This document shows positions 1-54,637 of a stretch of DNA of 64,000 nt, one piece after another (position 1 is the stretch's first letter; every line of letters begins with the position of its first letter). The notes under the pieces were generated by a model. The model was not told the origin of the DNA. It did not search any database and saw nothing but the letters and a program-made list of their open reading frames with translations. The stretch comes from Escherichia coli (GTDB lineage Bacteria > Pseudomonadota > Gammaproteobacteria > Enterobacterales > Enterobacteriaceae). The translations under genes were made by a program, and so were the position numbers. Where the stretch lies: NCBI RefSeq assembly GCF_013122565.1, contig NZ_CP053258.1; one strand, written 5' to 3'.

Positions 1-294
1 TATCTGAATCAGCTTTCAGCGCAGGGCATTCGCGTGGTCGGCATGAACTATAAAGACGATCGCCAGAAGGCAATCAGCTGGCTGAAAGAGCTGGGCAATC
101 CTTACGCGCTAAGCCTGTTTGATGGCGACGGCATGTTAGGGCTGGATCTCGGTGTCTATGGCGCGCCAGAAACGTTCCTTATTGACGGCAACGGCATCAT
201 TCGCTATCGCCATGCGGGCGATCTCAATCCTCGCGTCTGGGAAGAAGAGATCAAGCCGCTGTGGGAGAAATACAGTAAGGAGGCCGCACAATGA
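1..294 (+). CDS. ccmG: Thiol:disulfide interchange protein CcmG/DsbE, C-terminal part (5' end lies outside the window)
   Basis: Reading frame is open from base 1; translation (…LIDGNGIIRYRHAGDLNPRVWEEEI…) matches the CcmG/DsbE thioredoxin-fold C-terminus; the stop overlaps the ccmH start (ATGA at 291-294). Confidence 0.8.
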   Translation, partial: YLNQLSAQGIRVVGMNYKDDRQKAISWLKELGNPYALSLFDGDGMLGLDLGVYGAPETFLIDGNGIIRYRHAGDLNPRVWEEEIKPLWEKYSKEAAQ

Positions 295-1343: not shown

Positions 1344-1347
1344 AAAG

Positions 1348-1380
1348 TGGCCCGATGGTGATTCCATCGGGCTATTTTTA
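1348..1380. terminator. Putative bidirectional intrinsic terminator between the convergent ccmH and narP genes
   Basis: GC-rich hairpin (cccgatgg…ccatcggg) followed by a T-rich run, immediately after the ccmH stop. Confidence 0.5.
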
Positions 1381-2025
1381 TTGTGCCCCGCGTTGTTGCA
1401 GGAACAGAATGGTGGCCGCCACGCGTGAGCGGACATTGAGTTTACGCAGCAGATTGCGAATATGTACTTTTACTGTCTGCTCGGAAATATTCAACACCGA
1501 GGCAATTTGTTTATTTGACAGCCCCTGTGCCAGCTCGTGCAGAACATCCAGCTCGCGCTCCGTCAGCACGCTGAAGGGATCTTCTTCCGCGCCAAACATT
1601 TCACGTTCACGCAAGTACTGATTGACGCGTTCGCTAAAGACTTTGCTGCCTTTCGCTCCGGCACGAATCGCTTCCAGCAACACTTCCGGGTCGCTGTCTT
1701 TCAACAGATAACCGTCTGCGCCTGCGTCTATCAGCGCAAAGACATCGCTGGAGGCATCTGATACGGTCAGGATAATAATTTGCGCGGTAACGCCATCCCT
1801 GCGCAAGGCATTGAGGGTATCCAGGCCACTCATACCTTTCATATTGAGATCCAGCAAGATCACGTCGATATCCAGTCTATTCGCCAGATCGATAGCACTC
1901 GCGCCGTCGCCTGCTTCGGCGACCACTTCAAAGCCAGGATCAAGCTCCAGTAACTGACGAACACCGCGTCGCATAAGTGGATGATCATCCACAATCATCA
2001 CCTGAAAAGGCGTTGCTTCAGGCAT
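1378..2025 (-). CDS. narP: Nitrate/nitrite response regulator NarP (NarL/FixJ family)
   Basis: Translation starts MPEATPFQVMIVDDHPLMRRGV…; receiver domain plus LuxR-type HTH; start trimmed to the internal ATG giving 215 aa. Confidence 0.9.
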   Translation of the reverse strand: MPEATPFQVMIVDDHPLMRRGVRQLLELDPGFEVVAEAGDGASAIDLANRLDIDVILLDLNMKGMSGLDTLNALRRDGVTAQIIILTVSDASSDVFALIDAGADGYLLKDSDPEVLLEAIRAGAKGSKVFSERVNQYLREREMFGAEEDPFSVLTERELDVLHELAQGLSNKQIASVLNISEQTVKVHIRNLLRKLNVRSRVAATILFLQQRGAQ

Positions 2026-2344
2026 AGTAGTCTCCTGAGGTTTTATTAGAATCATTATGTTTGAGCGTAGCGTTGGTAACGCTACCAGGCGCGTGAATGT
2101 TACCCCATTTTATGTATGGACATGTAGTGAAAACTACAACCTTGTCGTTCGCTTCGGCATCATTTTCATTATAAAGACGGAATTTTGCATCAGCTTCTCA
2201 TCAAGAAAAACACCTAAAAAATCAATCACAATACTTGTGCATTTCTTTAAACAGTTTTTAAAAACTGACTCCGGGTATGGAGCTATGGGTATTTTCCGTA
2301 CCCAATGCTTTTAACAGCAATTAATTTCATAGGATGAAAGCTCA

Positions 2345-4936: not shown

Positions 4937-5000
4937 TAACAGAAAATAAACAGGCTGTGATGTGTCGCGGTCTGTTTATCGAATTAAATGCAGATATAAA

Positions 5001-5030
5001 AAAACCAACCGTAAAGGTTGGTTTTTTTTG
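5001..5030. terminator. Bidirectional intrinsic terminator (serves yejO on + and tRNA-Pro on -)
   Basis: Hairpin aaccaacc-gtaaa-ggttggtt flanked by an A-run upstream and a T-run downstream. Confidence 0.65.
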
Positions 5031-5037
5031 GGATTTT

Positions 5038-5114
5038 TGGTCGGCACGAGAGGATTTGAACCTCCGACCCCCGACACCCCATGACGGTGCGCTACCAGGC
5101 TGCGCTACGTGCCG
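5038..5114 (-). tRNA. proL: tRNA-Pro
   Basis: 77-nt sequence on the minus strand reading CGGCACGTAGCGCAGCCTGGTAGCGCACCGTCATGGGGTGTCGGGGGTCGGAGGTTCAAATCCTCTCGTGCCGACCA, with a paired acceptor stem, T-loop GGTTCAAATCC and encoded CCA. Confidence 0.85.
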
Positions 5115-5188
5115 ACTCGTGGCTGTTAATACTACCGTTTTCCACACCGATTGCAAGTAAGATATTTTGCTAACTGATTTATAATTAA

Positions 5189-6949
5189 TCAGTTAGCGAT
5201 AAAACGCTTCTCGTCTGTCAGTACTTGCAATAACAAACTTAACTGTGGTTTTTCATCTTTCACTCTTTCACCACGTAAGTTGTAAGTACGGTATTTACCG
5301 TTATTGTTCAGCACCAGCGTCTTTTTCGGGGTGGTAATTGCCAGCGTATCGTTATCCGCGGCGGTAACCCAGTAATGACGGCGTTGAGGGTTGAACAAAT
5401 CCTGACCTTGCGAATATTCGCTGGCAGGTGTGCTGACATGTAGCAGGCGTTGCATCAGCGTCGTCATCAGATCGGTATGATCAGTCAGAGCATTAATACG
5501 CTGCGCCGGCGTGCCTGGCCAGTGAATCACTAATGGTACCTGCAGATGACCGTGGGACCAGTCAAAGGTTTCTTCCTCTTCGCTCAGCGGAATACCCCGA
5601 CCGGCAGTGATAATCACCACCGTATTGTCCAGTTTGCCAGAATCACGCAGTGCATTGAGCACGCGGTTGATCTGGTCATCGACATTGCCTGCCGCCCGGC
5701 TATATTTCCGTGAAAATGCCTGCTGATTGCTGTCGTCAATGTTAGTGCCATTGAAAGAGACCCACGAGAACCAGCGGTTATCTTCTTGTGCGTAGCGGCC
5801 CAGCCAGTTGATCCACTGCGTGGCGGTCTGCTCGTCGGATTGGGTGCGTACGCTCGGCATCGAGAAATCTGACAACAATGCCTGGCGATACAGCGGGCTG
5901 GTAAAGCCATCTGACGAGAATAACCCCAGCTGATAGCCTTGCTGATTAAGCGCAGTAATTAACGCCGCAGGGGTACGGGTCGACAGAATGCCGTCCATAT
6001 AGCTCGGCGAGATGCCATAGAACAGGCCAAAGATGCCGTTGTCTGTAGTGTTGCCGGAGCTCATATGGCGCGTGAACGAAATATTTTGCTCAGCAAAACC
6101 TGCCAGCGCAGGCATCTGCTTCTCGAAGCGTGAGTAGTTCAGGCCATCGACAGTAATCAACAGCACATTCTGCCCAGTGCCCATATCGCGATAGCGCAGT
6201 TCGCTTAACGGATACTGAACGGAAACGGCGTCTGGATTACCTTGCTCAATAAGACGGCGTTGATACTCCTGCGCATCAAGCAGGCCATGCTTCTCAAGAA
6301 AACGTCGCGCCGTCATCGGGTACGAAAGCGGCAGGTTAGCGCGCTGCATGGTGATCGGGCGATAGAAGTTGGCATCGGCCCAGATATACACCACATGCGA
6401 GGCGATAAAGGCGATAAATAAGAATGCGGCCAGCGGGCGCGCGAAGCGTCGACGACGCGTCAGGCTGCGCAGCTTTTGCCAGCTCCACGTCGCAAACACC
6501 AGTTCAAGCAATAAAATAACCGGCACGCTGATGAACATCAGCTGCCAGTCGCGCGCCATCTCATTTTCGTCTGGGTTGATAACCAGTTGCCAGACGATGG
6601 GATTAAGATGGAGATGGAAACGAGTAAAGACTTCGCTATCGATCAGTAATAGCGTCATTCCCGCCGTTGCCAGAATGACGGACAAAAACCTCATCAGCCT
6701 CTGGGAGCCGACGATAAAGGTCAGCGGGAAGAGGATTAGCAAGTAGGTGGCAAACACCAGGAAGCTGAAATGGCCGATAATGCTTACGTAGGAATAAATG
6801 CGACCAGCAAGCGTGGTCGGCCAGTCGGCGATAAACAGGTAACGGCTGCCAATGACGAGCGAAAGCAGAATATTGAACAGTGCAAACCAGTGCCCCCAAC
6901 TGACCATCTGGGAGACTTTTTCACGGTAGCGCTGACGATGAGTTACCAT
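5189..6949 (-). CDS. yejM: Inner-membrane sulfatase-fold protein YejM/PbgA (regulator of LPS/cardiolipin homeostasis)
   Basis: 586-aa ORF with five N-terminal transmembrane helices and a periplasmic alkaline-phosphatase/sulfatase-like domain; conserved position. Confidence 0.9.
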   Translation of the reverse strand: MVTHRQRYREKVSQMVSWGHWFALFNILLSLVIGSRYLFIADWPTTLAGRIYSYVSIIGHFSFLVFATYLLILFPLTFIVGSQRLMRFLSVILATAGMTLLLIDSEVFTRFHLHLNPIVWQLVINPDENEMARDWQLMFISVPVILLLELVFATWSWQKLRSLTRRRRFARPLAAFLFIAFIASHVVYIWADANFYRPITMQRANLPLSYPMTARRFLEKHGLLDAQEYQRRLIEQGNPDAVSVQYPLSELRYRDMGTGQNVLLITVDGLNYSRFEKQMPALAGFAEQNISFTRHMSSGNTTDNGIFGLFYGISPSYMDGILSTRTPAALITALNQQGYQLGLFSSDGFTSPLYRQALLSDFSMPSVRTQSDEQTATQWINWLGRYAQEDNRWFSWVSFNGTNIDDSNQQAFSRKYSRAAGNVDDQINRVLNALRDSGKLDNTVVIITAGRGIPLSEEEETFDWSHGHLQVPLVIHWPGTPAQRINALTDHTDLMTTLMQRLLHVSTPASEYSQGQDLFNPQRRHYWVTAADNDTLAITTPKKTLVLNNNGKYRTYNLRGERVKDEKPQLSLLLQVLTDEKRFIAN

Positions 6950-6968
6950 AACCTGTTATCTGTTTCCC

Positions 6969-7196
6969 TTAGTGCGCTTTGTCTTCGTTGATAGAGGACT
7001 GTAAGGCGCGGGCAAAAGAGTTGGCAATTGCCTGGCGTTGGGCCGGGGCAATGCTAGTGTTGATAAGGTTAGTGACCATGTTGCCTAACACCATCAGGGA
7101 AAGGTCGGTCGGAGCCTTATGTTTTTCCAGTACGTTGAGCAGCTCTGCGAGCAATTGTTCAACTTGTTCATCACTGTAGCGGGAAATTTGTGGCAT
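6969..7196 (-). CDS. yejL: UPF0352 small protein YejL
   Basis: 75-aa ORF ([26 protein letters not shown]…), conserved position between yejM and yejK. Confidence 0.8.
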
Positions 7197-7377
7197 AAAT
7201 CGAAATCAGTTAGTTGATGAAAGGGCAACATATTACCGTAGCAACGGTTTTTTTTCTGCTTTTTTATGCGTTAAATCATTCTCGTTACGCTGCCTTCTGT
7301 AAAATGACCGCCATCTTTTATTGCGTCGCTTAACCGGCGGTGGTTGAATACCGCCCGGTCTTAAAGGAGAGTTTATC

Positions 7378-8385
7378 ATGAGTCTGGATATCAACCAGAT
7401 TGCTCTGCACCAGCTTATCAAGCGTGATGAGCAGAACCTTGAGCTGGTGTTGCGCGATTCATTGCTGGAACCGACAGAAACCGTCGTTGAGATGGTGGCA
7501 GAACTGCATCGGGTCTATAGCGCCAAAAATAAAGCTTACGGCTTGTTTAGCGAAGAGAGTGAACTGGCGCAGACGCTGCGCTTACAGCGTCAGGGCGAAG
7601 AGGACTTTCTGGCATTTAGCCGCGCGGCAACCGGTCGCCTGCGTGACGAATTAGCGAAATATCCTTTTGCTGACGGTGGATTCGTGCTGTTTTGCCACTA
7701 CCGTTATCTGGCGGTGGAGTATCTGCTGGTGGCAGTCCTGAGCAACCTGAGCAGTATGCGCGTTAACGAAAATCTCGACATCAACCCAACCCATTATCTT
7801 GATATCAATCATGCGGATATTGTTGCGCGTATCGATTTAACCGAATGGGAAACCAATCCAGAGTCGACCCGCTATCTCACTTTCCTGAAAGGGCGAGTAG
7901 GGCGCAAAGTGGCGGATTTCTTTATGGATTTCCTCGGGGCCAGCGAAGGGTTAAACGCGAAAGCGCAAAACCGTGGGCTGTTGCAAGCGGTTGATGATTT
8001 CACTGCCGAAGCACAACTGGATAAAGCAGAGCGACAGAACGTGCGCCAGCAGGTTTATAGCTACTGTAATGAGCAGCTGCAGGCAGGCGAAGAGATTGAA
8101 CTGGAGTCGCTGTCGAAAGAGCTGGCAGGCGTCAGCGAAGTGAGCTTCACGGAGTTTGCGGCTGAAAAAGGCTACGAACTGGAAGAGAGCTTCCCGGCAG
8201 ACCGTAGCACACTGCGTCAGTTGACGAAGTTTGCCGGTAGCGGCGGTGGCTTGACTATTAACTTTGATGCGATGCTGTTAGGTGAACGCATCTTCTGGGA
8301 TCCGGCGACCGATACCCTGACCATTAAAGGCACGCCGCCGAATTTGCGCGACCAATTGCAGCGCCGGACGTCTGGTGGGAACTAA
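7378..8385 (+). CDS. yejK: Nucleoid-associated protein YejK (NdpA)
   Basis: 335-aa ORF ([19 protein letters not shown]…), conserved gene order. Confidence 0.9.
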
Positions 8386-8765
8386 ATCTCCAACGCGAAT
8401 GTTTCTTTTCGGAGAAACAGTTGCGGGATAATCACAATTCTTGTCAATCAGTTAGTGAGATGACTTGCTGATTGACCTTTCATTCGAAAATGTTTTCTCT
8501 GTTATTATACTTAGTGTTACTGAAAATATTATTCTCTTATCCCCTTTATTCGATAATAAATCGGTCTGGTCACTATTTCCGCCGTTTTTTGTGAGCTGTA
8601 ACACTGGAAAAATCATTCTGTTTAATTATATTGAGTTTACTTGGCGTTATATGTTGTTATTTGCTTTGACTATATAAAATGCAAATGTATTCTTAATGTC
8701 AATATTATTGTCGTTATGTTTGACTCATTATATTAATCGTATGAATAGTTTTAAGGATTCACCGC

Positions 8766-9338
8766 ATGGAGCAAGAAAATCCTGAAGATAGAAAGTGTTG
8801 TCGACCGAAAAAAACGTTCTCTTTAACCAGAAAATTACTGGTATGTTTTATCTTTACCCTCATTGTATTCAGTGGTTGTTTATTTGTCGTTATGAACACG
8901 GTCATTCATAACACCAGCACTGACAGCTTTTGCCTGGGTTGTCATGAAATGAAAGACAACATCCTTACCGAGAGTTTCAAAAAATCCATTCATGGCAGTA
9001 ATCGTACTGGCGTGAAAGTCGCTTGTGCCGATTGCCATATTCCTGATGAATTTGTCCCTAAGATGATCAGAAAAGCCCACGCCGTTAAAGAGGTTTGGGG
9101 GCATATGACAGGCGTAATTGATACGGCCGATAAATTCGATGCACATCGTGGCGAAATGGCAAAAGCGGAATGGGCAAGAATGAAAGCAAACAATTCGCAG
9201 GAATGCAGAGACTGCCACGATATTTCTAAATTACAGAAAAAATTTATGGCGCCGTTCCATGAGGCTTCTCTTAAAGAAGGGAAAACATGCATTGATTGTC
9301 ATGCCGGCATTGCACATAAATTACCAGCAGTTCATTAG
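8766..9338 (+). CDS. NapC/NirT/CymA-family membrane-anchored tetraheme cytochrome c (putative quinol dehydrogenase)
   Basis: 190-aa ORF with an N-terminal transmembrane helix and four CxxCH heme-binding motifs (CLGCH, CADCH, CRDCH, CIDCH); AAGGA Shine-Dalgarno sequence 8 nt upstream; AT-rich codon usage. Confidence 0.85.
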   Translation: MEQENPEDRKCCRPKKTFSLTRKLLVCFIFTLIVFSGCLFVVMNTVIHNTSTDSFCLGCHEMKDNILTESFKKSIHGSNRTGVKVACADCHIPDEFVPKMIRKAHAVKEVWGHMTGVIDTADKFDAHRGEMAKAEWARMKANNSQECRDCHDISKLQKKFMAPFHEASLKEGKTCIDCHAGIAHKLPAVH

Positions 9339-9431
9339 TCATTAATACATGAATGTCATGTCTGTCTGGTTTCAAATAAAAACAAGAAGGGTTTCATGTT
9401 GATTTAAGTTTTTATGTAAAAGGACCATGTT

Positions 9432-11072
9432 ATGAGGAAACTAAAAAGGGGATTCTTATTGGCTGGGGTATTAACGGCACTTTCTCTAAGCGCTTATGCT
9501 GACAGAAATATGAATAAGATCCCGCATATCAATCTGTCGAATCCATCCGTCGAACCAGTTAGTGAGAGAATAATCCAAACAGATATTGTTGTTATTGGCG
9601 GTGGGCTTTCTGGCATGTCCGCAGGGTTGACTGCAGTACAGGGCGGAGCCAAAGTTGTTATTTTTGAAAAACTACCAAGCCTTGGAGGGGCAGGCGTTTA
9701 TCCTGAAGGCAGTTTAGGCATTGGCACCCTTATGCAAAAAAAAGAGGGGAAAGGTGCCACGCTGAATCAAGCCTTTGGTAAGGCGATCGATTTCCATCAC
9801 TGGCGAGCCAATGCTAGTGCATTGCACGCATTAATGAAAAACTCAGGCGAAACCATTGATTGGGTTGCCAGTAATGGCGTTGAGTTTACGACCTTAAAAA
9901 CCACCATTTATCCTCAGTCAGATTCATTATGGACCTGGCATATGTATAAGCATAATGGTGCATCTGTTACTAAAAGCTTTTACAAGAAGATCCTTGATGG
10001 AGGTGGGCAAATCTACACCGAAACTCCTGTTAAGAAGATTCTTCGCGACAAACAAAGCGGTGATGTCGTTGGCGTCGAAGCGGTTAATAGCGTAACAGGG
10101 GAAAAAATCATTGCCTATGGTAAGGGTGTGATTGTGGCGACCGGTGGTTTTGCCAACAACCGTGACATGATTGAAAAATACATCACCGATGTGAATCAGA
10201 AAAACATGGTGCCGGTCAAACTACGTGGCCCCCTGATTGATGGACGCGAAGGCGATGGTATCAAAATGGGGCAAGACATTGGCGCTGATACTGCCGGGAT
10301 GCAAACCATTGCTGGCAATAGCCCATATGTCGATCAAGACCCTCCTATCCGTCAGTTTAATGGCGCGGATTACCAAAAACAGGCCAGAACGTCATTAAGC
10401 CAGCCATTCCTGTGGATTAACCGACAAGGCGAGCGTTTCTTTGATGAGTCACTCGGTTCCAGTTTTACCCTCGTTTATAACGCTATCACCATGAATGGCG
10501 GAGTCATGTATTCTGTCTGGGATGATGCAATGCGCCAGAAGATGGTTAACGAAGGGCCGGTTACACCGTTTAACGCCATCGTGTTGCCTGGGCAGCCGAT
10601 GAAGGCGCTGGATCAGGCGATCGAAATCGGCATGAAAGAAGGGTGGTTATTTAAAGGTGAAACGTTGGACGATCTGGCAAAACAGATCAATGTTCCTGCA
10701 GACAATCTGAAAGCGACGATTGCGAAAGTAAACAAGTATACGGATGAAGGTTTCGATCCTGACTGGGGGCGCAAGAAAGAGCATCTGTTTAAATTTCAGG
10801 ATAAAGGACCGTATTACGCCGTGAAAGGTATTCGGGCTTATTTCCTGACGCTGGGTGGTTTGAAAATGAACAGCGATCTGCAGGTCTACGATACCAATGA
10901 GAAGATTATCCCAGGTCTGTATGTTGTCGGGCAGGATATGGGCGGTCTGTATGACAGCTCCTATGATTTGGTACTTGAAGGATCGGCTTCTGGCTTTGCG
11001 TTGACGTCGGGACGTATGGCAGCGAAACATATTATAAGCACCAGAGTGCAGGCACAGGGAGGAGGCAAATGA
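9432..11072 (+). CDS. Periplasmic FAD-dependent flavoprotein reductase, fumarate-reductase/flavocytochrome-c family (substrate unknown)
   Basis: 546-aa ORF; signal peptide MRKLKRGFLLAGVLTALSLSAYA; dinucleotide-binding fold VVIGGGLSGMSAG; C-terminal FAD-binding motif of the FrdA/SdhA family (…GLYVVGQDMGG…); its stop overlaps the next start (ATGA). Confidence 0.85.
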   Translation: MRKLKRGFLLAGVLTALSLSAYADRNMNKIPHINLSNPSVEPVSERIIQTDIVVIGGGLSGMSAGLTAVQGGAKVVIFEKLPSLGGAGVYPEGSLGIGTLMQKKEGKGATLNQAFGKAIDFHHWRANASALHALMKNSGETIDWVASNGVEFTTLKTTIYPQSDSLWTWHMYKHNGASVTKSFYKKILDGGGQIYTETPVKKILRDKQSGDVVGVEAVNSVTGEKIIAYGKGVIVATGGFANNRDMIEKYITDVNQKNMVPVKLRGPLIDGREGDGIKMGQDIGADTAGMQTIAGNSPYVDQDPPIRQFNGADYQKQARTSLSQPFLWINRQGERFFDESLGSSFTLVYNAITMNGGVMYSVWDDAMRQKMVNEGPVTPFNAIVLPGQPMKALDQAIEIGMKEGWLFKGETLDDLAKQINVPADNLKATIAKVNKYTDEGFDPDWGRKKEHLFKFQDKGPYYAVKGIRAYFLTLGGLKMNSDLQVYDTNEKIIPGLYVVGQDMGGLYDSSYDLVLEGSASGFALTSGRMAAKHIISTRVQAQGGGK

Positions 11073-47533: not shown

Positions 47534-49513
47534 ATGTTTAGGTTGAACCCTTTCGTACGGGTCGGGCTGTGTTTGTCCGCTATTTCTTGTGCATGGCCTG
47601 TGTTAGCGGTCGATGATGATGGCGAAACGATGGTTGTCACTGCATCTTCCGTTGAACAAAACCTTAAAGATGCACCTGCCAGTATCAGCGTCATTACCCA
47701 GGAAGACCTGCAGCGAAAACCGGTACAGAATCTGAAGGATGTCCTCAAAGAAGTGCCTGGCGTACAACTGACGAACGAAGGGGATAACCGTAAGGGCGTT
47801 AGTATTCGTGGTCTGGACAGCAGCTATACCCTGATTCTTGTCGACGGTAAACGCGTTAACTCCCGCAATGCCGTCTTCCGCCACAATGATTTCGATCTGA
47901 ACTGGATCCCGGTCGATTCCATCGAACGTATTGAAGTGGTTCGTGGCCCGATGTCGTCGCTGTACGGTTCCGATGCGCTCGGCGGTGTTGTGAATATCAT
48001 CACCAAAAAAATCGGTCAGAAATGGTCGGGTACCGTTACCGTCGATACCACCATTCAGGAACATCGCGATCGCGGTGATACCTATAACGGTCAGTTCTTT
48101 GCCAGCGGACCATTAATTGACGGTGTGCTGGGAATGAAAGCTTACGGCAGCCTGGCAAAACGTGAAAAGGATGATCCGCAAAACTCAACGACCACCGATA
48201 CTGGAGAAACGCCGCGTATTGAAGGATTCTCCAGCCGCGACGGCAATGTCGAATTTGCCTGGACACCGAATCAAAATCACGATTTTACTGCCGGATACGG
48301 TTTCGACCGTCAGGATCGTGATTCCGACTCGCTGGACAAAAACCGCCTGGAACGCCAGAACTACTCCGTCAGCCATAATGGGCGTTGGGATTACGGCACC
48401 AGCGAACTGAAATACTACGGTGAGAAAGTCGAGAACAAAAACCCTGGCAACAGCAGCCCGATAACTTCCGAAAGCAATACGGTCGACGGCAAATACACGT
48501 TGCCGCTGACGGCGATTAATCAGTTTCTCACAGTTGGCGGTGAATGGCGTCACGACAAACTTAGCGATGCGGTGAACCTGACCGGGGGAACCAGCTCCAA
48601 AACGTCTGCCAGCCAGTACGCGCTGTTTGTGGAAGATGAATGGCGGATCTTCGAGCCGCTGGCGCTGACGACCGGCGTACGTATGGACGATCATGAAACC
48701 TACGGTGAACACTGGAGTCCGCGTGCCTACCTGGTTTATAACGCCACCGACACCGTAACGGTGAAAGGGGGCTGGGCGACGGCATTTAAAGCGCCTTCTC
48801 TGTTGCAACTTAGCCCTGACTGGACGAGCAATTCCTGCCGTGGCGCATGTAAGATTGTGGGTAGCCCGGATCTGAAACCAGAAACCAGCGAAAGTTGGGA
48901 GCTGGGGCTTTACTATATGGGTGAAGAAGGCTGGCTGGAAGGGGTTGAATCCAGCGTTACCGTTTTCCGTAACGATGTGAAAGATCGCATCAGCATCAGC
49001 CGTACGTCTGACGTCAATGCTGCACCGGGCTACCAAAACTTTGTCGGTTTTACAGCGGGCGGTGTGCCGGTATTCAGCTACTACAACGTTAACAAAGCAC
49101 GTATTCAGGGCGTGGAAACCGAACTGAAAATTCCGTTCAACGATGAATGGAAACTGTCACTCAACTACACCTACAACGATGGTCGTGATGTCAGCAACGG
49201 CGAAAATAAACCGCTATCCGATCTGCCGTTCCATACTGCTAACGGTACGCTGGACTGGAAACCGCTGGCGCTGGAAGACTGGTCATTCTATGTTTCTGGT
49301 CACTATACCGGGCAGAAACGAGCCGACAGCGCGACGGCTAAAACACCGGGCGGTTATACCATCTGGAATACCGGCGCGGCCTGGCAGGTGACCAAAGATG
49401 TCAAACTGCGCGCAGGCGTGCTGAACCTTGGCGACAAGGATCTCAGTCGTGACGACTACAGCTATAACGAAGACGGACGTCGTTACTTTATGGCAGTGGA
49501 TTATCGCTTCTGA
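47534..49513 (+). CDS. cirA: TonB-dependent outer-membrane receptor CirA (catecholate siderophore/colicin Ia receptor)
   Basis: 659-aa ORF with signal peptide, TonB box (ETMVVTAS), plug and beta-barrel ending in the terminal aromatic residue (…AVDYRF). Confidence 0.9.
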
Positions 49514-49520
49514 TGAGAAG

Positions 49521-49547
49521 ATGCCCGGCGCGGATCCTGCCGGGCAT
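49521..49547. terminator. GC-rich hairpin downstream of cirA (terminator-like)
   Basis: Perfect 9-bp stem atgcccggc…gccgggcat directly after the cirA stop; no clear U-tract. Confidence 0.4.
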
Positions 49548-49571
49548 AATGCCAGAAATTCGGTTCTGGAT

Positions 49572-50894
49572 TTATAACCGATGAAATTTTGCCAGTAAGG
49601 CCAGTGAAAATGTTGTCAGCAAAATGGTAATGACGGCGTAAATATACACGCCTGACCATTCCCAACTGTTTTTCACCATAATAACTGGAAGCCCTGCCAT
49701 TGCCGCGCCTACATAACTAAATAAGCCCCTGAACCCAGTAATGGAACCTGCCGCATCTTTATGCGTAACATCAAGACATCCGACAGCGAATAACATATGT
49801 GGTCCATATAATGCAAACCCCATGATTGTAAAAAGAATAGCCGTTAATGTGTAGGAGACGTCCTGCACCAGCGGCACGAGAACGATGCAAATACATAAGG
49901 CGATGGCAAACATTAATCCGGTCATCCAGCGGTTACTTTTAAACATAAAATCGGACAAGTACCCCGCCAGTAATCCCCCTGCAAGTCCACCTGCTTCAAA
50001 CCAGGATATAATGGAGTTCGCTTTAATCAGGCTCCAGTTATGAACCTGAGAATAATAAATTTGTGGCCAGTCATTGAGGATGGTGCGTGCAATATAGACT
50101 GACATATCCCCGAGGATAATCAGCCAAACTAATGGGTTGGTAAGAATATATTTAATGAAAATTTGCCAAAAACTCAGATCTACCGGGCTTGCTTTAACTT
50201 GTGCAAGTTCTGTCGGGTCGTTGCGCCACTTACCTACGTTAGGCAAACCGAGTGTGCCAGGACGATCTTTAATCGTAAACAGGGCAACAACCCCCATAAT
50301 CAGCGATATTACACCCGGAACATAAAAGCCCATTTTCCAGCTGCCACTAAAAGCAATGGCAAAGCTTGTCAGGAGAGGCGCAAGACTACCGCCAATATTA
50401 TGCGCCGCTTCAACAACTGCCCACCAGCGCCCGCGTTCATTTTTAGAAAACCACGAGGCCATAATTTTTGCCATCGGCGGAAAACTGGTACCCTGAAGAA
50501 TAGCATTAAGGCTATACAGGATATAGAACGCAGCAACGCTGTCTGAAAAACCGAAAAGAATGTTAACAATACCGACGCCAATAAGTACGGGGCCGGTCAT
50601 TGCGCGTGGGTTAATTTTATCGACTAACATGCCCCCTACAAACTTCATGGAGCCATAAAGAATGTAAAAGACCGACGACATGATAGCGAAATCTTGTGCG
50701 GTTAATGACGTATCCGTCAACATCGCCGGCATGGCCGCAGAGAAATTCTTGCGGGTTAAATAAAATACGGCATAAGAGATAAATACAGAGGTGATGATTT
50801 CAATACGAAATTTTTTATAAGTATGATCAACTTCTTCTTTCGGTTTGACCACTGGTTGGTCGGCCTGGCTGAAAATAAATTTTTTCAAGCTCAT
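49572..50894 (-). CDS. MFS organophosphate:phosphate antiporter (GlpT/UhpT/PgtP family); accessory, substrate unknown (phosphoserine proposed)
   Basis: 440-aa, 12-TM ORF; N-terminal region (…YRRLRWQI… / YLVRKNFALAMP in GlpT versus …YKKFRIEI… / YLTRKNFSAAMP here) and overall architecture match the OPA family; AT-rich. Confidence 0.8.
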   Translation of the reverse strand: MSLKKFIFSQADQPVVKPKEEVDHTYKKFRIEIITSVFISYAVFYLTRKNFSAAMPAMLTDTSLTAQDFAIMSSVFYILYGSMKFVGGMLVDKINPRAMTGPVLIGVGIVNILFGFSDSVAAFYILYSLNAILQGTSFPPMAKIMASWFSKNERGRWWAVVEAAHNIGGSLAPLLTSFAIAFSGSWKMGFYVPGVISLIMGVVALFTIKDRPGTLGLPNVGKWRNDPTELAQVKASPVDLSFWQIFIKYILTNPLVWLIILGDMSVYIARTILNDWPQIYYSQVHNWSLIKANSIISWFEAGGLAGGLLAGYLSDFMFKSNRWMTGLMFAIALCICIVLVPLVQDVSYTLTAILFTIMGFALYGPHMLFAVGCLDVTHKDAAGSITGFRGLFSYVGAAMAGLPVIMVKNSWEWSGVYIYAVITILLTTFSLALLAKFHRL

Positions 50895-50926
50895 CGTGAG
50901 TTTCCTTTTCTGTGAACCTTATGGTG

Positions 50927-51814
50927 CTATAGTTTTTCTTCTATAAAAAAGAGAAGCGACTCGAAACCATTAAAATTAATCTGGTTAGTAACTTTTTCCC
51001 GGGTTTTAGGTTTTGCTTTCCATGCCACGCCATACCCGGCATGCAGAAGCATAGGAATATCATTAGCGCCATCTCCGCAGGCAATGATGTTTTCACGACA
51101 AATAGATAACTCTGTCGCCAAATTTATCAGGGTTTGCTTTTTCTTTTCTGCATTCATAATGGGAAAGGTAATTTTGTCAGTTAATAGATCTTCCTGAATG
51201 CGTACAGAGTTAGAAAATGCAAAATCAAGTTGATATTTTTCTTTTAATCTCTCAGTAAAAATATCTAAACCGCCGGATATAATTGCCGTCTTGAATCCTT
51301 TTTCTTTAAGAATGGGAAGAATAGTTTTAAGACCTGGTGAAAGGGTCATCTGTTCACAAACCTGATGCAATATATCTTTATGTGTTCCTTTAAGCATGCC
51401 AATTCGGCGGGTAAAACTGGTATCAAAATCGATTTTTCCTTCCATCGCTTCACGGGTCAGCGCGGTGATTTTTTCAGAGATCCCGAGTCTACGGGCTATT
51501 TCATCGACGCCTTCCTCTTCAACAAAGGTGGAATCCATATCAAAGGCAATAATTCCCTCAGCCGGTAAGTCCGTAGGTTTGCGGAAAAAATCAAAATGAT
51601 GATGATCAGCACGGTGACGTAAACCAGCATAAAAATCAGGATTGGTTACATCATCTGTTAATACTAGCTTTAGATACTCTTTATTTATTTGCTCACTGTA
51701 ATTCGTTGTTAACGAAAACACCGAGGATGAAACCTTTAAATGTTGCAAATAATGTTCCAGACATTTTTTGGTGATGTCGATGCCTGTTGGCGACAAGAAA
51801 TAAATAATCGTCAT
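50927..51814 (-). CDS. HAD-superfamily phosphoserine phosphatase paralog (SerB-like)
   Basis: 295-aa ORF with HAD motif I (FDMDST), motif III Lys and motif IV (GDGANDIPML); strongly resembles E. coli SerB (…DMDSTAI…, …GDGANDLPMI…AKPK…). Confidence 0.8.
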   Translation of the reverse strand: MTIIYFLSPTGIDITKKCLEHYLQHLKVSSSVFSLTTNYSEQINKEYLKLVLTDDVTNPDFYAGLRHRADHHHFDFFRKPTDLPAEGIIAFDMDSTFVEEEGVDEIARRLGISEKITALTREAMEGKIDFDTSFTRRIGMLKGTHKDILHQVCEQMTLSPGLKTILPILKEKGFKTAIISGGLDIFTERLKEKYQLDFAFSNSVRIQEDLLTDKITFPIMNAEKKKQTLINLATELSICRENIIACGDGANDIPMLLHAGYGVAWKAKPKTREKVTNQINFNGFESLLFFIEEKL

Positions 51815-52023
51815 TTACCGCTCCTTTTTATCTGCAATGATTATAATAAGGTTTCGTAGCGGCTGATGTATCTAACAATCACAGTTGTGAATGTTAAATA
51901 AAAGATAAAAAAGTGCTTTTTTTGATACCCTGAAATAATAAGATACTAAAAGTACCATTTTTGATACCTTTGCCAGGATATAACGAATAACGAGTTTCAA
52001 CGTTGAAGGAATCATTTACAAAA

Positions 52024-53376
52024 ATGGAAAGCTGCTTAGATATATTCAAGATAGTTATAGGTCCATCCAGTTCCCGCACTGTCGGGCCAATGCGTGCGGC
52101 TTATAATTTTGTCTCACAATTGAAACAGCGAGAAATGTTACCTTTGTTGCGGAAAATTGATGTCGAACTTTATGGCGCACTGTCATTAAGCCGCAAGTGC
52201 CATAATGTTGATGTGGCGATTTATCTCGGTTTGCAAGGTCACTTACCTGACAGCGTTGATATCCGCATGGAAATGTCCGCCATCAGGCGTGCGGAAACTG
52301 AGGCGACGCTGGAAGTTATGCCTGGTGTCAACGTTGGTGTAGCCATTATTTCTAATCCACAGGCGCACCCGGGGCATCCTTATGCGATGACATTTCGTGC
52401 CAGAGATGACTGGTTTACGCTTTATGAAGAAACCTGCTTTTCTGTCGGCGACGGTCAGGTTCAAAAAGCGGGAGAGGCGATGATTCCCTCCTCAGTCACT
52501 CCACATCCTTTTGAATTCCAGAACGCAAACGAATTATTAAAACTTTGTCAGCAAAACGGATTATCTGTTGCGGCATTAATGATGAAAAACGAACTACACT
52601 GCCAGACTTCTGATTTTTTGCATGACGATCTCAATAAAAAATGGGAAGTAATGAAGGATGCGGTCTATCGCGGGATGCATACAGAGGGATTACTTCCTGG
52701 TCCGTATCAGGTTAACCGTCGTGCCTGTGCTTTATATAAATCGTTGCAGGCAAAGGGGTTTACCAATGACTTCCTGACTACGATCAATTGGGTCAATACT
52801 TTTGCCATTGCGGTGAGCGAAGAAAATGCTGCAGGTGGACGCGTCGTGACAGCACCCACCAACGGCGCGAGCGGTATTATCCCGGCCGTACTGTGTTGGT
52901 ATGACAAATTCATTCACGAGCTTGATACTTACTCCGTTACCCGCTTTTTTCTGACCGCCGGTGCCATAGCCATTCTGTTCAAAAAAAATGCCTCTATTCT
53001 GGGGTCTGAAGTTGGATGTCAGGGGGAAATAGGCGTTGCCAGTTCAATGGCGGCAGCAGGATTAGCAGAACTTATGGGCGGGTCAGTGACTCAGGTACTC
53101 AGCGCGGCAGAAATTGCGATGGAACACCATTTAGGTTTGACCTGTGATCCAGTTGGCGGGCAGGTACAAATTCCTTGTATTGAACGAAATGCTATTTCAG
53201 CCGTGAAAGCTATCAACGCAACGACGATGGCTTTGAGTCGCATAAGCGAGCCGTGCATTACGCTGGATGAGATAATTTCCGCGATGTATGAAACCGGAAA
53301 GGATATGAGCGCTAAATACCGGGAAACTTATCATGGCTGTCTTAGCAAATTGCAGCCAAGAAAAAAGGACGCGTAA
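52024..53376 (+). CDS. L-serine dehydratase paralog (SdaA/SdaB family, Fe-S dependent)
   Basis: About 450 aa; N-terminal IGPSSS(R/H)TVGPM motif, central …[23 protein letters not shown]… and C-terminal …[19 protein letters not shown]… all near-identical to E. coli SdaA; start set at the ATG following an AAGGA ribosome-binding site (the ORF track begins 21 nt upstream at TTG). Confidence 0.8.
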
Positions 53377-53377
53377 G

Positions 53378-53767
53378 ATGAAATACAATACCATGAATAA
53401 CAACGAAATTATTTTATCTCTGTGCGCACGTATTAAAGAAACGCGGATCTCATTATCATTGACCCAGCAGCAGTTAGCCGATCGTGCATTGGTGGGCATT
53501 GCAACGGTCAAGCGGATTGAAAAGGGGGGAAGTTTAAATCTTGATACCCTCATTTCTCTTCTGCGCGCGCTGAATAAATTGCAAAATCTCGATGCCATAT
53601 TGTTCGAAGCAGAAATGCGTAATTTCAATGAAAATACTTCCAGCGGCGAAGGGGCAGGGCGACTTCAGGTGCGCCAGCAACTGACAGATTTAAACCAGAA
53701 GTCTCCAGCCCCGCACGCAGATGACCGTGATTTTAGTACGGCGCTGGAAAATACTCTTTGCTGGTGA
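53378..53767 (+). CDS. Small XRE-family helix-turn-helix transcriptional regulator
   Basis: 129-aa ORF with HTH (…SLTQQQLADRALVGIATVKRIEKG…); start set at the ATG 1 nt after the serine dehydratase stop. Confidence 0.6.
   Translation: MKYNTMNNNEIILSLCARIKETRISLSLTQQQLADRALVGIATVKRIEKGGSLNLDTLISLLRALNKLQNLDAILFEAEMRNFNENTSSGEGAGRLQVRQQLTDLNQKSPAPHADDRDFSTALENTLCW

Positions 53768-54637
<870 letters not shown>

What the first reader, a model, noticed from the sequence alone, without database searches (positions are those of the whole stretch)
49520..53770. Accessory four-gene module between cirA and yeiG: putative phosphoserine uptake and catabolism system
Seen in sequence: between the cirA terminator hairpin and the 3' end of yeiG lie an OPA-family (GlpT/UhpT/PgtP-like) transporter and a SerB-like HAD phosphatase on the minus strand, and divergently on the plus strand an SdaA-like L-serine dehydratase followed 1 nt later by a small XRE-family regulator. 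All are AT-rich with strong ribosome-binding sites. Established knowledge: SerB dephosphorylates O-phospho-L-serine; SdaA deaminates L-serine to pyruvate and ammonia; OPA antiporters import organophosphates in exchange for phosphate; as I recall the K-12 order, cirA and yeiG are adjacent. Inference: the three activities form a self-consistent pathway (import phosphoserine or a related phospho-amino acid, release phosphate, convert to pyruvate), a catabolic island I do not recognise as a described E. coli system.
Basis: partly seen in the sequence, partly recalled or inferred. Interest (0 to 1): 0.85.

Follow-up and report, generated by a model that had tools for sequence, protein, structure and literature searches.

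The report
Putative phosphoserine import and catabolism operon
Between cirA and yeiG this E. coli carries four genes (a phosphate-exchange transporter, a phosphoserine phosphatase, a serine deaminase and a small regulator) that form an old enterobacterial locus, kept in Salmonella and Citrobacter but deleted from about 98% of E. coli; it probably lets the cell feed on phosphoserine, but I found no published test of this.

Summary
Four intact genes lie between cirA and yeiG:
- an OPA-family MFS transporter (49572-50894, minus strand);
- a SerB-type phosphatase (50927-51814, minus strand);
- an Fe-S L-serine dehydratase (52024-53376, plus strand);
- an XRE regulator (53378-53767, plus strand).

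K-12 has cirA and yeiG 31 nt apart. Only 85-89 of 5,426 complete E. coli genomes carry the block.

It is not a recently acquired island. The same four genes sit at the same site in Salmonella enterica (STM2195 is the regulator), many Citrobacter, Scandinavium and Escherichia whittamii. Synonymous divergence matches the flanks, and there are no mobility marks. Most E. coli lost it by one 4.25-kb deletion.

The phosphoserine reading is strengthened but not proven.
- The phosphatase keeps all 12 catalytic and phosphoserine-binding residues of the M. jannaschii enzyme.
- The transporter forms an isolated OPA clade with a unique Glu162 and an uncompensated Arg389. Arg389 aligns with UhpT K391, a known selectivity position.
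- This transporter clade pairs with a different SerB-type phosphatase in Photobacterium.
- All four genes are under purifying selection.
- There is no Pho box.

I found no paper describing the system. Novelty: a new variant of a known kind, of moderate interest.

The parts
49521..49547 (.). GC-rich hairpin (ATGCCCGGC-N9-GCCGGGCAT) between the convergent cirA and MFS genes. Identity to the K-12-type (deletion) allele ends at 49530, inside this hairpin.
   Evidence: not reported by the terminator scan because there is no T-run
49572..50894 (-). OPA-family MFS transporter, 440 aa; predicted phosphoserine:phosphate antiporter. It keeps R48, K49, K84, H165, Y267, R270, E300 and Y394. Clade-specific residues are V161, E162, S137, H366 and T386/R389.
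   Evidence: dN/dS 0.02-0.05
50927..51814 (-). SerB-type HAD phosphoserine phosphatase, 295 aa. The catalytic domain is residues ~86-295. The fast-evolving N-terminal domain (1-85) is unrelated in sequence to that of K-12 SerB. PDB 4eze is its Salmonella ortholog.
   Evidence: dN/dS 0.17-0.22
51815..52023 (.). Divergent control region, with islands of conservation across genera in an otherwise diverged spacer.
51840..51847 (-). ATTATAAT, a conserved perfect -10 box placed about 26 nt upstream of the HAD start codon. No recognisable -35, so the promoter is probably activator-dependent.
   Evidence: inference
51878..51893 (.). Conserved element ATCACAGTTGTGAATG (TCACA-N2-TGTGA). It is not a CRP site in arrangement.
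51909..51929 (+). Operator-like repeat 1, AAAAGTGCTTTTTTTGATACC.
   Evidence: the pattern occurs only twice in 64 kb; 0.12 expected
51948..51968 (+). Operator-like repeat 2, AAAAGTACCATTTTTGATACC. In Salmonella and Citrobacter it is a near-palindrome, GGTATCA-TTTT-TGATA(C/T)N. It is the candidate binding site of the XRE regulator.
52024..53376 (+). Single-chain 4Fe-4S L-serine dehydratase paralog, 450 aa, 50% identical to SdaA. Cluster cysteines C332, C374 and C385 are kept. SSSHT is changed to SSSRT, LTGKGH to LSRKCH, and the C-terminal Cys is absent.
   Evidence: dN/dS 0.11-0.14
53378..53767 (+). XRE-family HTH regulator, 129 aa (HTH at residues 15-70, conserved C-terminal tail ending in W). 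It is probably translationally coupled to the dehydratase. It corresponds to Salmonella STM2195/t0660.
   Evidence: dN/dS 0.02-0.08
53768..54604 (-). yeiG (flank). Identity to the K-12-type allele resumes at 53784; the last two codons differ (..YLQE* here, ..YLLK* in K-12).
47534..49513 (+). cirA (flank).

Best explanation
This is a chromosomal four-gene unit for using external O-phospho-L-serine.

Proposed mechanism:
1. The MFS protein is an organophosphate:phosphate antiporter that brings phosphoserine in and sends inorganic phosphate out.
2. The co-transcribed SerB-type phosphatase hydrolyses phosphoserine in the cytoplasm to L-serine and phosphate. This also regenerates the phosphate the antiporter needs as counter-substrate.
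3. The divergently transcribed Fe-S L-serine dehydratase converts the serine to pyruvate and ammonium. This yields carbon and nitrogen and prevents toxic serine build-up.
4. The XRE protein, translated just behind the dehydratase, controls both promoters through two 19-21-nt repeats in the 209-bp divergent region.

What is shown: gene content, enzyme-family membership, conservation of catalytic and ligand-binding residues, purifying selection, and conservation of the block across genera.

What is inferred: the transported substrate, the antiport coupling, the direction of regulation and the inducer.

Evolution: the locus is ancestral to Escherichia, Salmonella and Citrobacter and was removed from most E. 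coli by one 4.25-kb deletion.
For: 1. Enzymes.
- The HAD passes the SerB equivalog model.
- All 12 residues that catalyse hydrolysis or bind phosphoserine in M. jannaschii PSP are invariant in every ortholog: D11, D13, E20, M43, F49, R56, S99, G100, K144, D167, N170, D171. This holds even though overall identity between genera is only 58-64%.
- The dehydratase passes TIGR00720 and keeps the three cluster cysteines.

2. Transporter.
- It keeps the OPA phosphate-binding set R48, K84, H165 and R270. PMC2739438 states that GlpT K80, H165 and R269 are substrate-binding.
- At the positions aligned with UhpT D388/K391 it has T386/R389, an uncompensated cation. In UhpT an uncompensated K391 shifts selectivity from glucose-6-phosphate to carboxylated phosphoesters (PMC12483993, citing Hall 1999 and 2001).
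- It has Glu162 where 105 of 129 family representatives have Asn or Ser. Glu occurs only in this clade.
- A cation plus an anion beside the phosphate site fits a phospho-amino acid.

3. Association.
- The four genes stay together, in the same order and orientation, in Escherichia, Salmonella, Citrobacter, Scandinavium and an unnamed enterobacterium whose left flank differs.
- In Photobacterium lutimaris and in a metagenome contig the same transporter clade (67-68% identity) is followed by a SerB-type phosphatase. In P. lutimaris that phosphatase is only 35% identical to this one. In both, the gene order is reversed.

4. Selection. dN/dS is 0.02-0.22 for all four genes. The block is complete, with all four genes annotated, in all 85 full-length E. 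coli copies, which fall into at least five allele classes.

5. Regulation.
- There is no Pho box, which fits carbon/nitrogen use rather than phosphate scavenging.
- Conserved operator-like repeats occur only in the divergent region.
- Tn-seq in S. Typhimurium shows fewer insertions in STM2195, a weak hint that losing the regulator is costly.
Against: - There is no direct transport, growth or enzyme result for any of the four proteins.
- The transporter scores highest against UhpC and PgtP models. An uncompensated cation at position 389 equally fits phosphoglycerate or PEP.
- The role of position 162 (GlpT N162) in contacting the organic part of the substrate rests on my recollection of published GlpT work. 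I could not confirm it in the held papers.
- In Gallibacterium and one other contig the transporter stands alone, without the enzymes.
- The dehydratase carries unusual changes near its active-site motifs (SSSRT, LSRKCH, no C-terminal Cys), so its substrate might not be plain L-serine.
- No canonical promoter or inducer-binding domain was found.
- A natural supply of free phosphoserine in these bacteria's habitats is assumed, not shown.
Confidence: 0.55

Rival explanations
1. The architecture is the same, but the physiological substrate is another phospho-amino compound: O-phospho-L-threonine, O-phospho-D-serine, O-phosphohomoserine, phosphoethanolamine, or a broad phospho-amino-acid range. 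Phosphoserine would be only one of several.
For: Glu162 and Arg389 predict a charged amino/carboxyl substrate but do not identify the side chain. My recollection is that SerB enzymes show some activity on phosphothreonine and on D-phosphoserine. The N-terminal domain of the phosphatase and the dehydratase motifs differ from the housekeeping enzymes.
Against: The residues that hold the serine carboxylate and amino group in M. jannaschii PSP (R56, E20) and that pack against its short side chain (M43, F49) are invariant. From established enzymology, 4Fe-4S serine dehydratases are specific for L-serine, so threonine or ethanolamine would not be consumed by the partner enzyme.
Confidence: 0.15
2. 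The transporter is a PgtP- or UhpT-like carrier for phosphoglycerate, PEP or a sugar phosphate. The adjacent SerB and SdaA paralogs serve a separate purpose, such as serine homeostasis, and are linked only by genome position.
For: The best model hits are UhpC and the PgtP subfamily. The uncompensated cation at the UhpT-391 position is the feature that gives PEP/3-phosphoglycerate preference in UhpT mutants. In Gallibacterium the transporter occurs without the enzymes.
Against: All OPA equivalog scores are below their cut-offs. Glu162 is unique to the clade and would repel a purely anionic substrate. The HAD gene lies 32 nt upstream of the transporter on the same strand. The four-gene block is conserved across at least four named genera, and an unrelated SerB-type gene pairs with the clade in Photobacterium. 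Routing imported 3-phosphoglycerate through serine to pyruvate makes no metabolic sense, because glycolysis already does this conversion.
Confidence: 0.1
3. The module scavenges phosphate: phosphoserine is imported as a phosphorus source under phosphate starvation, and the dehydratase merely disposes of the serine.
For: A cytoplasmic phosphatase releases phosphate. From general knowledge, phosphoserine is a standard phosphorus source in phenotype arrays.
Against: No Pho box within three mismatches anywhere in the window. An OPA antiporter exchanging phosphoserine for phosphate gives little or no net phosphate gain (an established property of UhpT and GlpT). The regulator is a local XRE protein, not PhoB.
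Confidence: 0.08
4. The MFS protein is a UhpC-like sensor rather than a carrier, or the whole block is a silent remnant on its way to loss, with no present function.
For: UhpC is the closest model. About 98% of E. coli have lost the block. Four E. coli copies are broken by IS1, and C. koseri NCTC10786 has a frameshifted transporter. The block is AT-rich and could be H-NS-silenced (inference).
Against: There is no UhpB/UhpA-type two-component partner nearby. dN/dS of 0.02-0.05 for the transporter, and intact reading frames over divergence so deep that synonymous sites are saturated, show long-term function. All 85 full-length E. coli copies have the four genes annotated.
Confidence: 0.07

Closest known systems
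GlpT / glp regulon (sn-glycerol-3-phosphate:phosphate antiporter with GlpQ and GlpABC) of E. coli
   Same: Same transporter family and fold (E=1.9e-68 to PDB 1pw4). It has the same phosphate-binding residues (R45/K80/H165/R269 equivalents). It follows the same logic: an antiporter gene placed next to, and divergent from, the enzymes that consume the imported phosphoester.
   Different: Only 31% identity, and the score is far below the GlpT cut-off (277 vs 632). N162 is replaced by E162, and T389 by R389. The partner enzymes here are a phosphatase and a deaminase, not dehydrogenases. The regulator is XRE, not GlpR.
UhpT/UhpC hexose-phosphate system and Salmonella PgtP phosphoglycerate transporter
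   Same: These are the nearest OPA models (UhpC 422 bits, PgtP subfamily 340). The selectivity positions UhpT-388/391 are informative here.
   Different: 38% identity to K-12 UhpC and 25% to UhpT, below all cut-offs. There are no UhpAB or PgtABC signalling genes. Glu162 is absent from all of them.
sdaCB and tdcABCDEFG operons (serine transporter plus L-serine deaminase)
   Same: A transporter is genetically coupled to a 4Fe-4S L-serine dehydratase of the SdaA/SdaB/TdcG type, giving serine to pyruvate plus ammonium.
   Different: The dehydratase is a fourth, distinct paralog: 50% identical to SdaA, a separate subfamily at 67% identity or more, then a drop to 54% or less. It has altered motifs and no C-terminal Cys. 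The imported compound would be the phosphoester, not serine. A 2026 review lists only sdaA, sdaB and tdcG.
Housekeeping phosphoserine phosphatase SerB (serine biosynthesis)
   Same: Same HAD-IB catalytic domain, all signature residues kept, and it passes TIGR00338.
   Different: 41% identity over the catalytic domain only, with an unrelated N-terminal domain. It fails the enterobacterial SerB equivalog NF008350 (205 vs 413). Its genomic context is catabolic, not biosynthetic.
PDB 4eze, 'haloacid dehalogenase-like hydrolase'
   Same: Full-length match to the HAD (E=6.5e-116). Its sequence is nearly identical to the HAD of the Salmonella enterica locus L001, so it is the Salmonella ortholog of this gene. 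From memory it is S. Typhi t0658, target EFI-501419.
   Different: Deposited with a generic name, and I found no paper on it. Its substrate profile, if it was part of the Huang et al. 2015 PNAS HAD screen, could not be read because that paper is not held.

Membership tests
Organophosphate:phosphate antiporter (OPA) family of the MFS (TC 2.A.1.4) | MFS fold, with best similarity to OPA members | tested here: met
   Pfam MFS_1 is on record. GlpT structure 1pw4 matches at E=1.9e-68 and SLC37A4 at E~1e-51 over the full length. The top NCBIfam hits are all OPA models.
Organophosphate:phosphate antiporter (OPA) family of the MFS (TC 2.A.1.4) | The two essential arginines (GlpT R45/R269, UhpT R46/R275) plus K80 and H165 of the phosphate site | tested here: met
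   R48, R270, K84 and H165 align and are invariant in alignment A2. They are present in 123, 114, 117 and 79 of 129 representatives respectively.
Organophosphate:phosphate antiporter (OPA) family of the MFS (TC 2.A.1.4) | Phosphate-linked exchange activity | not testable with these tools
   Needs proteoliposome counterflow assays.
UhpC, UhpT, GlpT or PgtP (specific equivalogs) | Score above the curated NCBIfam cut-off | tested here: not met
   UhpC 422 < 564; PgtP subfamily 340 < 408; PgtP equivalog 216 < 750; GlpT 277 < 633; UhpT 195 < 497.
UhpC, UhpT, GlpT or PgtP (specific equivalogs) | Family-typical residues W161-N162 (TM5), and D388/K391 or uncharged equivalents (TM11) | tested here: not met
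   The clade has V161-E162 and T386/R389. Glu at position 162 occurs only in this clade among the 129 aligned sequences, most of them representatives of 50%-identity clusters.
Phosphoserine phosphatase SerB (HAD-IB, TIGR00338) | Score above the equivalog cut-off | tested here: met
   210.3 bits against a cut-off of 144.15.
Phosphoserine phosphatase SerB (HAD-IB, TIGR00338) | HAD motifs I-IV and the phosphoserine-binding residues of M. jannaschii PSP (E20, M43, F49, R56) | tested here: met
   12 of 12 residues are invariant in six module orthologs, the P. lutimaris HAD, K-12 SerB and MjPSP.
Phosphoserine phosphatase SerB (HAD-IB, TIGR00338) | Enterobacterial housekeeping SerB architecture (NF008350, SerB-type N-terminal domain) | tested here: not met
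   205 bits against a cut-off of 413. No significant N-terminal similarity to K-12 SerB.
Phosphoserine phosphatase SerB (HAD-IB, TIGR00338) | Measured phosphoserine hydrolysis | not testable with these tools
   The possible data source (Huang et al. 2015, PMC4413258) is not held.
Single-chain 4Fe-4S L-serine ammonia-lyase (TIGR00720; SdaA/SdaB/TdcG type) | Score above the cut-off, with SDH_beta plus SDH_alpha domains | tested here: met
   545 bits against a cut-off of 345. PF03315 and PF03313 are on record. Legionella structure 4rqo matches at E=5e-108.
Single-chain 4Fe-4S L-serine ammonia-lyase (TIGR00720; SdaA/SdaB/TdcG type) | Three cluster-ligand cysteines (SdaA C339, C381, C392) | tested here: met
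   C332, C374 and C385 align with them.
Single-chain 4Fe-4S L-serine ammonia-lyase (TIGR00720; SdaA/SdaB/TdcG type) | SdaA/SdaB/TdcG equivalog scores, the GPSSSHT motif, and the C-terminal cysteine tail | tested here: not met
   NF011614 508 < 873 and NF011598 463 < 942. The motif is SSSRT, and the tail is ..KLQPRKKDA instead of ..KVQCD, in all module orthologs.
XRE-family transcription regulators | HTH_3 (Cro/C1-type) DNA-binding domain | tested here: met
   PF01381, E=4e-9, residues 19-66. The HTH is conserved across genera.
Horizontally acquired genomic island | Mobility marks: integrase or transposase, a tRNA target, flanking direct repeats, and divergence out of step with the flanks | tested here: not met
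   No tRNA. No bracketing repeats. No mobility ORFs. Same site in four genera. dS in the block is about equal to dS in cirA and yeiG. Only the low GC content points to a foreign, but ancient, origin.

The most novel reading that the evidence does not exclude
The transporter founds a new OPA subfamily, the first dedicated bacterial phospho-amino-acid:phosphate antiporter. Its signature is Glu162 with an uncompensated Arg389. With its private phosphoserine phosphatase and a fourth, structurally altered L-serine dehydratase, it would form a previously unrecognised nutrient pathway. That pathway would be common to Salmonella and Citrobacter, would use host- or food-derived phosphoserine (phosphoproteins such as casein or phosvitin, or phosphatidylserine breakdown), and would have been discarded by most E. 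coli.
Probability: 0.45. Interest if true: 0.6.

Novelty: new variant of a known kind. Interest (0 to 1): 0.5.

Why it matters
If correct, the finding adds a new substrate class, phospho-amino acids, to a well-studied transporter family. It also gives two concrete selectivity residues to test, E162 and R389.

It would assign a function to four unnamed genes present in essentially all Salmonella enterica and many Citrobacter (STM2195 and its three neighbours), including a protein whose crystal structure (4EZE) has sat unexplained.

It would reveal a fourth serine deaminase that current reviews of enterobacterial serine catabolism do not list.

It would define a metabolic difference between Salmonella/Citrobacter and most E. 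coli that could matter for niche use in the gut, in eggs or milk, or inside host cells.

The presence/absence polymorphism in E. coli, with about 1.6% of genomes keeping deep allelic lineages, offers natural isogenic-like material for testing.

The finding is a clean hypothesis built from known parts, not a new kind of system.

Tried and rejected
Literature
- Six of the ten full-text searches looked for a description of the module itself. No paper held any of the phrases 'phosphoserine transporter', 'uptake', 'import', 'catabolism' or 'utilization'. None of the other searches turned up a description of the module.
- Only STM2195 appeared, in one Tn-seq table. That paper's supplements held nothing for STM2194-2199.
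- I tried three identifiers for the HAD substrate-profiling paper (Huang et al. 2015, PNAS, PMC4413258). It is not held.
- I searched for confirmation that GlpT N162 contacts the glycerol moiety. Only K80, H165 and R269 are confirmed in held papers.

Regulation
- Pho box: none within three mismatches.
- CRP site: none in the module; the window total equals chance.
- Sigma-70 promoter and terminator scans: counts are at or below shuffled expectation, and nothing falls in the divergent region.
- Rfam: only two sub-threshold hits to eukaryotic families, which are chance.

Mobile-element reading
- No tRNA, no bracketing repeats and no mobility genes, so I rejected it.
- I considered that the high HAD divergence (62% identity to Salmonella, against 91% for the transporter) meant mosaic acquisition or decay. 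I rejected this because Salmonella vs Citrobacter shows the same pattern, dN/dS is about 0.2, the catalytic residues are invariant, and the changes sit in the N-terminal domain.

Other
- The one other OPA representative with an acidic residue at position 162 (P0173) lies on a 1.7-kb contig with no neighbours.
- I ran no structure prediction. The tools return no coordinates, so cavity geometry could not be measured.

Full report
WHAT IS THERE

Between the stop of cirA (49513) and the stop of yeiG (53768) lie four intact genes.
- A 440-aa MFS protein (49572-50894) and a 295-aa HAD phosphatase (50927-51814) are on the minus strand, 32 nt apart.
- A 450-aa L-serine dehydratase (52024-53376) is on the plus strand. 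A 129-aa helix-turn-helix protein (53378-53767) follows it after one base.
- I take ATG 52024, not the upstream TTG, as the dehydratase start. Sequence conservation across genera begins there, and other E. coli records annotate it.

GC content falls to 35-47% inside the block, against 50-55% outside.

Curated models place the proteins as follows.
- The MFS belongs to the organophosphate:phosphate antiporter (OPA) family but reaches none of the family's named equivalogs.
- The HAD protein scores above the SerB equivalog cut-off.
- The dehydratase scores above the single-chain Fe-S L-serine ammonia-lyase cut-off.
- The small protein is an XRE-type HTH.

The exact proteins are on record as E. coli proteins with generic names.

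ACCESSORY IN E. COLI, BUT NOT AN INSERTION

K-12 MG1655 has yeiG and cirA 31 nt apart. Of 5,426 complete E. coli genomes, 5,422 match the flanks. Only 85 carry the full block, and 4 more carry an IS1-damaged version. All copies are chromosomal and at this site.

The same four genes, in the same order and orientation, lie between yeiG and cirA/lysP in these taxa:
- Salmonella enterica, several subspecies;
- eight Citrobacter species representatives;
- Escherichia whittamii;
- Scandinavium manionii;
- an unnamed enterobacterium, where the block is still attached to yeiG although the left neighbour differs.

Several observations argue against insertion.
- There is no tRNA, integrase, transposase or bracketing repeat.
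- Synonymous divergence inside the block is like that of the flanks. For E. coli vs E. whittamii, dS is 0.26-0.54 in the block, 0.49 in cirA and 0.66 in yeiG.

The K-12-type allele departs from this window at 49530, inside the hairpin after cirA. It rejoins at 53784, two codons before the end of yeiG. The simplest history is therefore an ancestral locus removed by one 4.25-kb deletion that now dominates E. coli. The surviving E. coli copies fall into at least five allele classes, 94.8-97.9% identical to this one, and all are intact.

ARE THE GENES FUNCTIONAL?

Yes, by the usual sequence tests. Pairwise dN/dS values are:
- transporter, 0.02-0.05;
- regulator, 0.02-0.08;
- dehydratase, 0.11-0.14;
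- phosphatase, 0.17-0.22.

Amino-acid identity between E. coli and Salmonella is uneven: transporter 91%, regulator 75%, dehydratase 72-73%, phosphatase 62%. Salmonella against Citrobacter shows the same pattern, so this is a property of the genes and not of one lineage. The phosphatase changes are concentrated in its first 85 residues.

THE PHOSPHATASE

Aligned with M. jannaschii phosphoserine phosphatase (PDB 1f5s), twelve residues are invariant in all six module orthologs examined, in the Photobacterium enzyme and in K-12 SerB. They are:
- the nucleophile and general acid (D92, D94);
- motifs II-IV (S180, G181, K225, D248, N251, D252);
- the four residues that hold the serine part of the substrate (E101, M124, F130, R137).

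The catalytic domain is 41% identical to K-12 SerB, and the N-terminal domain has no detectable similarity to it.

PDB entry 4eze, deposited only as a 'haloacid dehalogenase-like hydrolase', matches over the full length. It is almost identical to the Salmonella gene in locus L001, so the Salmonella ortholog already has a crystal structure. From memory it is S. Typhi t0658. This fits the Tn-seq table, which equates STM2195 with t0660.

THE DEHYDRATASE

It is 50% identical to SdaA and keeps the three cluster cysteines (C332, C374, C385). It belongs to a tight subfamily found only with this module: 67% identity or more, then a drop to 54% or less.

All members share three departures from SdaA and the Legionella enzyme:
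- SSSHT becomes SSSRT;
- LTGKGH becomes LSRKCH;
- the C-terminal cysteine is replaced (..KVQCD becomes ..KLQPRKKDA).

I cannot say what these changes do. A 2026 review of serine use by gut bacteria lists only sdaA, sdaB and tdcG.

THE TRANSPORTER

This protein decides what the module acts on.

It keeps the phosphate-binding residues of the family: R48, K84, H165 and R270. These correspond to GlpT R45, K80, H165 and R269. A held paper names K80, H165 and R269 as substrate-binding.

It is an isolated clade. Among 1.84 billion cluster representatives, the only full-length relative above 37% identity is the Photobacterium lutimaris protein, at 68%.

In an alignment of 129 family sequences, most of them cluster representatives, two charged residues mark the clade.
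- Position 162 is Glu. It is Asn in 65 and Ser in 40 of the aligned sequences, and Glu nowhere else. My recollection is that GlpT N162 contacts the glycerol part of the substrate. I could not verify this in the held papers.
- At the positions aligned with UhpT D388/K391, the clade has T386/R389, a cation with no partner. A held paper, citing Hall et al. 1999 and 2001, states that an uncompensated K391 turns UhpT from a glucose-6-phosphate carrier into a carrier of PEP or 3-phosphoglycerate, which are carboxylated phosphoesters.

A free cation for a carboxylate and a new anion for an ammonium group, next to an intact phosphate site, is what a phospho-amino-acid carrier would need. This is inference from aligned positions, not a demonstration.

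ASSOCIATION EVIDENCE

- The four-gene block is kept as a unit over divergence deep enough to saturate synonymous sites.
- Outside the Enterobacteriaceae the transporter clade occurs in Photobacterium lutimaris and in a metagenome contig. In both it is followed by a SerB-type phosphatase, with the gene order reversed. The P. lutimaris enzyme is only 35% identical to this one. This looks like a second, independent pairing of the transporter with a phosphoserine phosphatase.
- In Gallibacterium species (77-82% identity) and one other contig the transporter stands alone. This is compatible with use of the housekeeping SerB but adds no support.

REGULATION

The 209-bp divergent region is poorly conserved between genera except for a few islands.
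- One is a perfect ATTATAAT about 26 nt upstream of the phosphatase start codon, with no -35.
- Another is an ATCACAG..TGTGAATG element.
- The third is a pair of 19-21-nt direct repeats, AAAGTRCYWTTTTTGATAC, 39 nt apart. They occur nowhere else in the 64-kb window (2 found, 0.12 expected). In Salmonella and Citrobacter the second repeat is a near-palindrome, GGTATCA-TTTT-TGATA(C/T)N.

The repeats are the natural candidates for the XRE protein's operators.

There is no Pho box and no CRP site, and the consensus promoter scan finds nothing there.

In a Tn-seq comparison, STM2195 ('putative DNA-binding protein', no K-12 ortholog) tolerated fewer insertions in S. Typhimurium in LB (15th-17th percentile) than in S. 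Typhi. This is weak evidence that loss of the regulator is costly, as expected for a repressor of a transporter and deaminase operon.

MOST LIKELY MECHANISM

1. External phosphoserine is exchanged for internal phosphate by the antiporter.
2. The phosphatase releases serine and returns the phosphate to the exchange cycle.
3. The dehydratase converts serine to pyruvate and ammonium and prevents serine accumulation.
4. The XRE protein sets expression of both operons.

The net gain is carbon and nitrogen rather than phosphorus, which fits the absence of Pho control. I put this at about 0.55. The rivals are:
- another phospho-amino compound as the true substrate (0.15);
- a PgtP- or UhpT-like carrier with unrelated neighbours (0.10);
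- phosphate scavenging (0.08);
- a sensor or a silent remnant (0.07).

COMPARISON WITH KNOWN SYSTEMS, AND VERDICT

The module works like the glpT, uhpT and pgtP systems, in which an OPA antiporter feeds a phosphoester to cytoplasmic enzymes. It also works like sdaCB and tdc, in which a transporter is coupled to a serine deaminase.
- It is a member of the OPA family but of none of its named specificities.
- Its phosphatase is a SerB by sequence criteria but is not the housekeeping enzyme.
- Its dehydratase is a fourth paralog.

I found no description of the module in the searchable literature. That literature excludes most subscription journals, so the negative is not absolute.

I rate it a new variant of a known kind and of moderate interest. 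It is a well-supported, cheaply testable hypothesis that would give a function to genes present throughout Salmonella, not a new type of system.

Noticed in passing
window 52024-53376; orthologs in L001, L006, L009, L013: The module's L-serine dehydratase differs from SdaA and the Legionella enzyme at conserved motifs in every ortholog. GPSSSHT becomes GPSSSRT, LTGKGH becomes LSRKCH, and the C-terminal cysteine tail (..KVQCD) is replaced by ..KLQPRKKDA. Two extra arginines near the catalytic motifs raise the untested possibility of altered regulation, or even of direct action on a phosphorylated substrate.
   Followed up: partly
window 49572-53767 vs L005, L044, L045, L046: E. coli copies of the block fall into at least five deep allele classes (97.9, 96.7, 96.1, 95.0 and 94.8-94.9% DNA identity to this one). 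In strain EC42405 the neighbouring yeiG is also unusually divergent (dS 0.54, against 0.05 for folE). An old presence/absence polymorphism or repeated recombination at this spot would explain this.
   Followed up: partly
L014, L015, L019 (Gallibacterium spp.), 7001-8320: Pasteurellaceae of birds carry the transporter alone, at 77-82% amino-acid identity to the enterobacterial protein. It sits next to a xanthine permease, and in one species next to cytolethal distending toxin B. The identity is high for that taxonomic distance and suggests horizontal transfer.
   Followed up: partly
L002/L016 (Photobacterium lutimaris) 2464-8329; L047 (K-12) 1-5625: In P. lutimaris an NCS2 purine permease and an adenine deaminase precede the transporter. 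In Gallibacterium a xanthine permease precedes it. This echoes the K-12 arrangement adeQ-adeD next to uhpT-uhpC. It is either a remnant of common ancestry of the loci or a coincidence.
   Followed up: no
L018 (Citrobacter koseri NCTC10786) 7001-8321; L010 (S. enterica subsp. arizonae type strain) 7001-8272: The C. koseri transporter gene is split into two reading frames at about codon 273. The arizonae gene diverges after codon 424. These are pseudogenes or assembly errors. Four E. coli genomes have IS1 insertions or deletions in the block (H114 and H115).
   Followed up: partly
L007-L009, L011, L012, L018, L020 (Citrobacter spp.) about 8700-10700: In most Citrobacter the place of cirA, between the transporter and lysP, is taken by a different TonB-dependent receptor. 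It is 36-40% identical to CirA and lies on the opposite strand.
   Followed up: no
window 53765-53770: The regulator's stop codon (TGA) is directly followed by the reverse complement of the yeiG stop (TTA). The two convergent genes therefore have no intergenic space and no terminator between them. In Salmonella the two reading frames overlap.
   Followed up: no
window 49511-49547 vs L004 1612-1646: The deletion allele (K-12 type) has rebuilt a different hairpin after cirA (GCCCGG-CGAA-CCGGGC) from the same left arm. Its yeiG ends ..YLLK*, as in Citrobacter, while module-bearing E. coli end ..YLQE* or ..YLQK*.
   Followed up: partly
window 47534-49513: The longest cirA ORF here is 659 aa, as annotated in strain EC42405, against 663 aa in K-12 and most other records. 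This is an N-terminal start-site difference.
   Followed up: no
Salmonella STM2195 (= the XRE gene; L001 4103-4492): A published Tn-seq table lists STM2195/t0660 among genes that tolerate fewer insertions in S. Typhimurium 14028 than in S. Typhi Ty2 during growth in LB (PMC3487940).
   Followed up: partly
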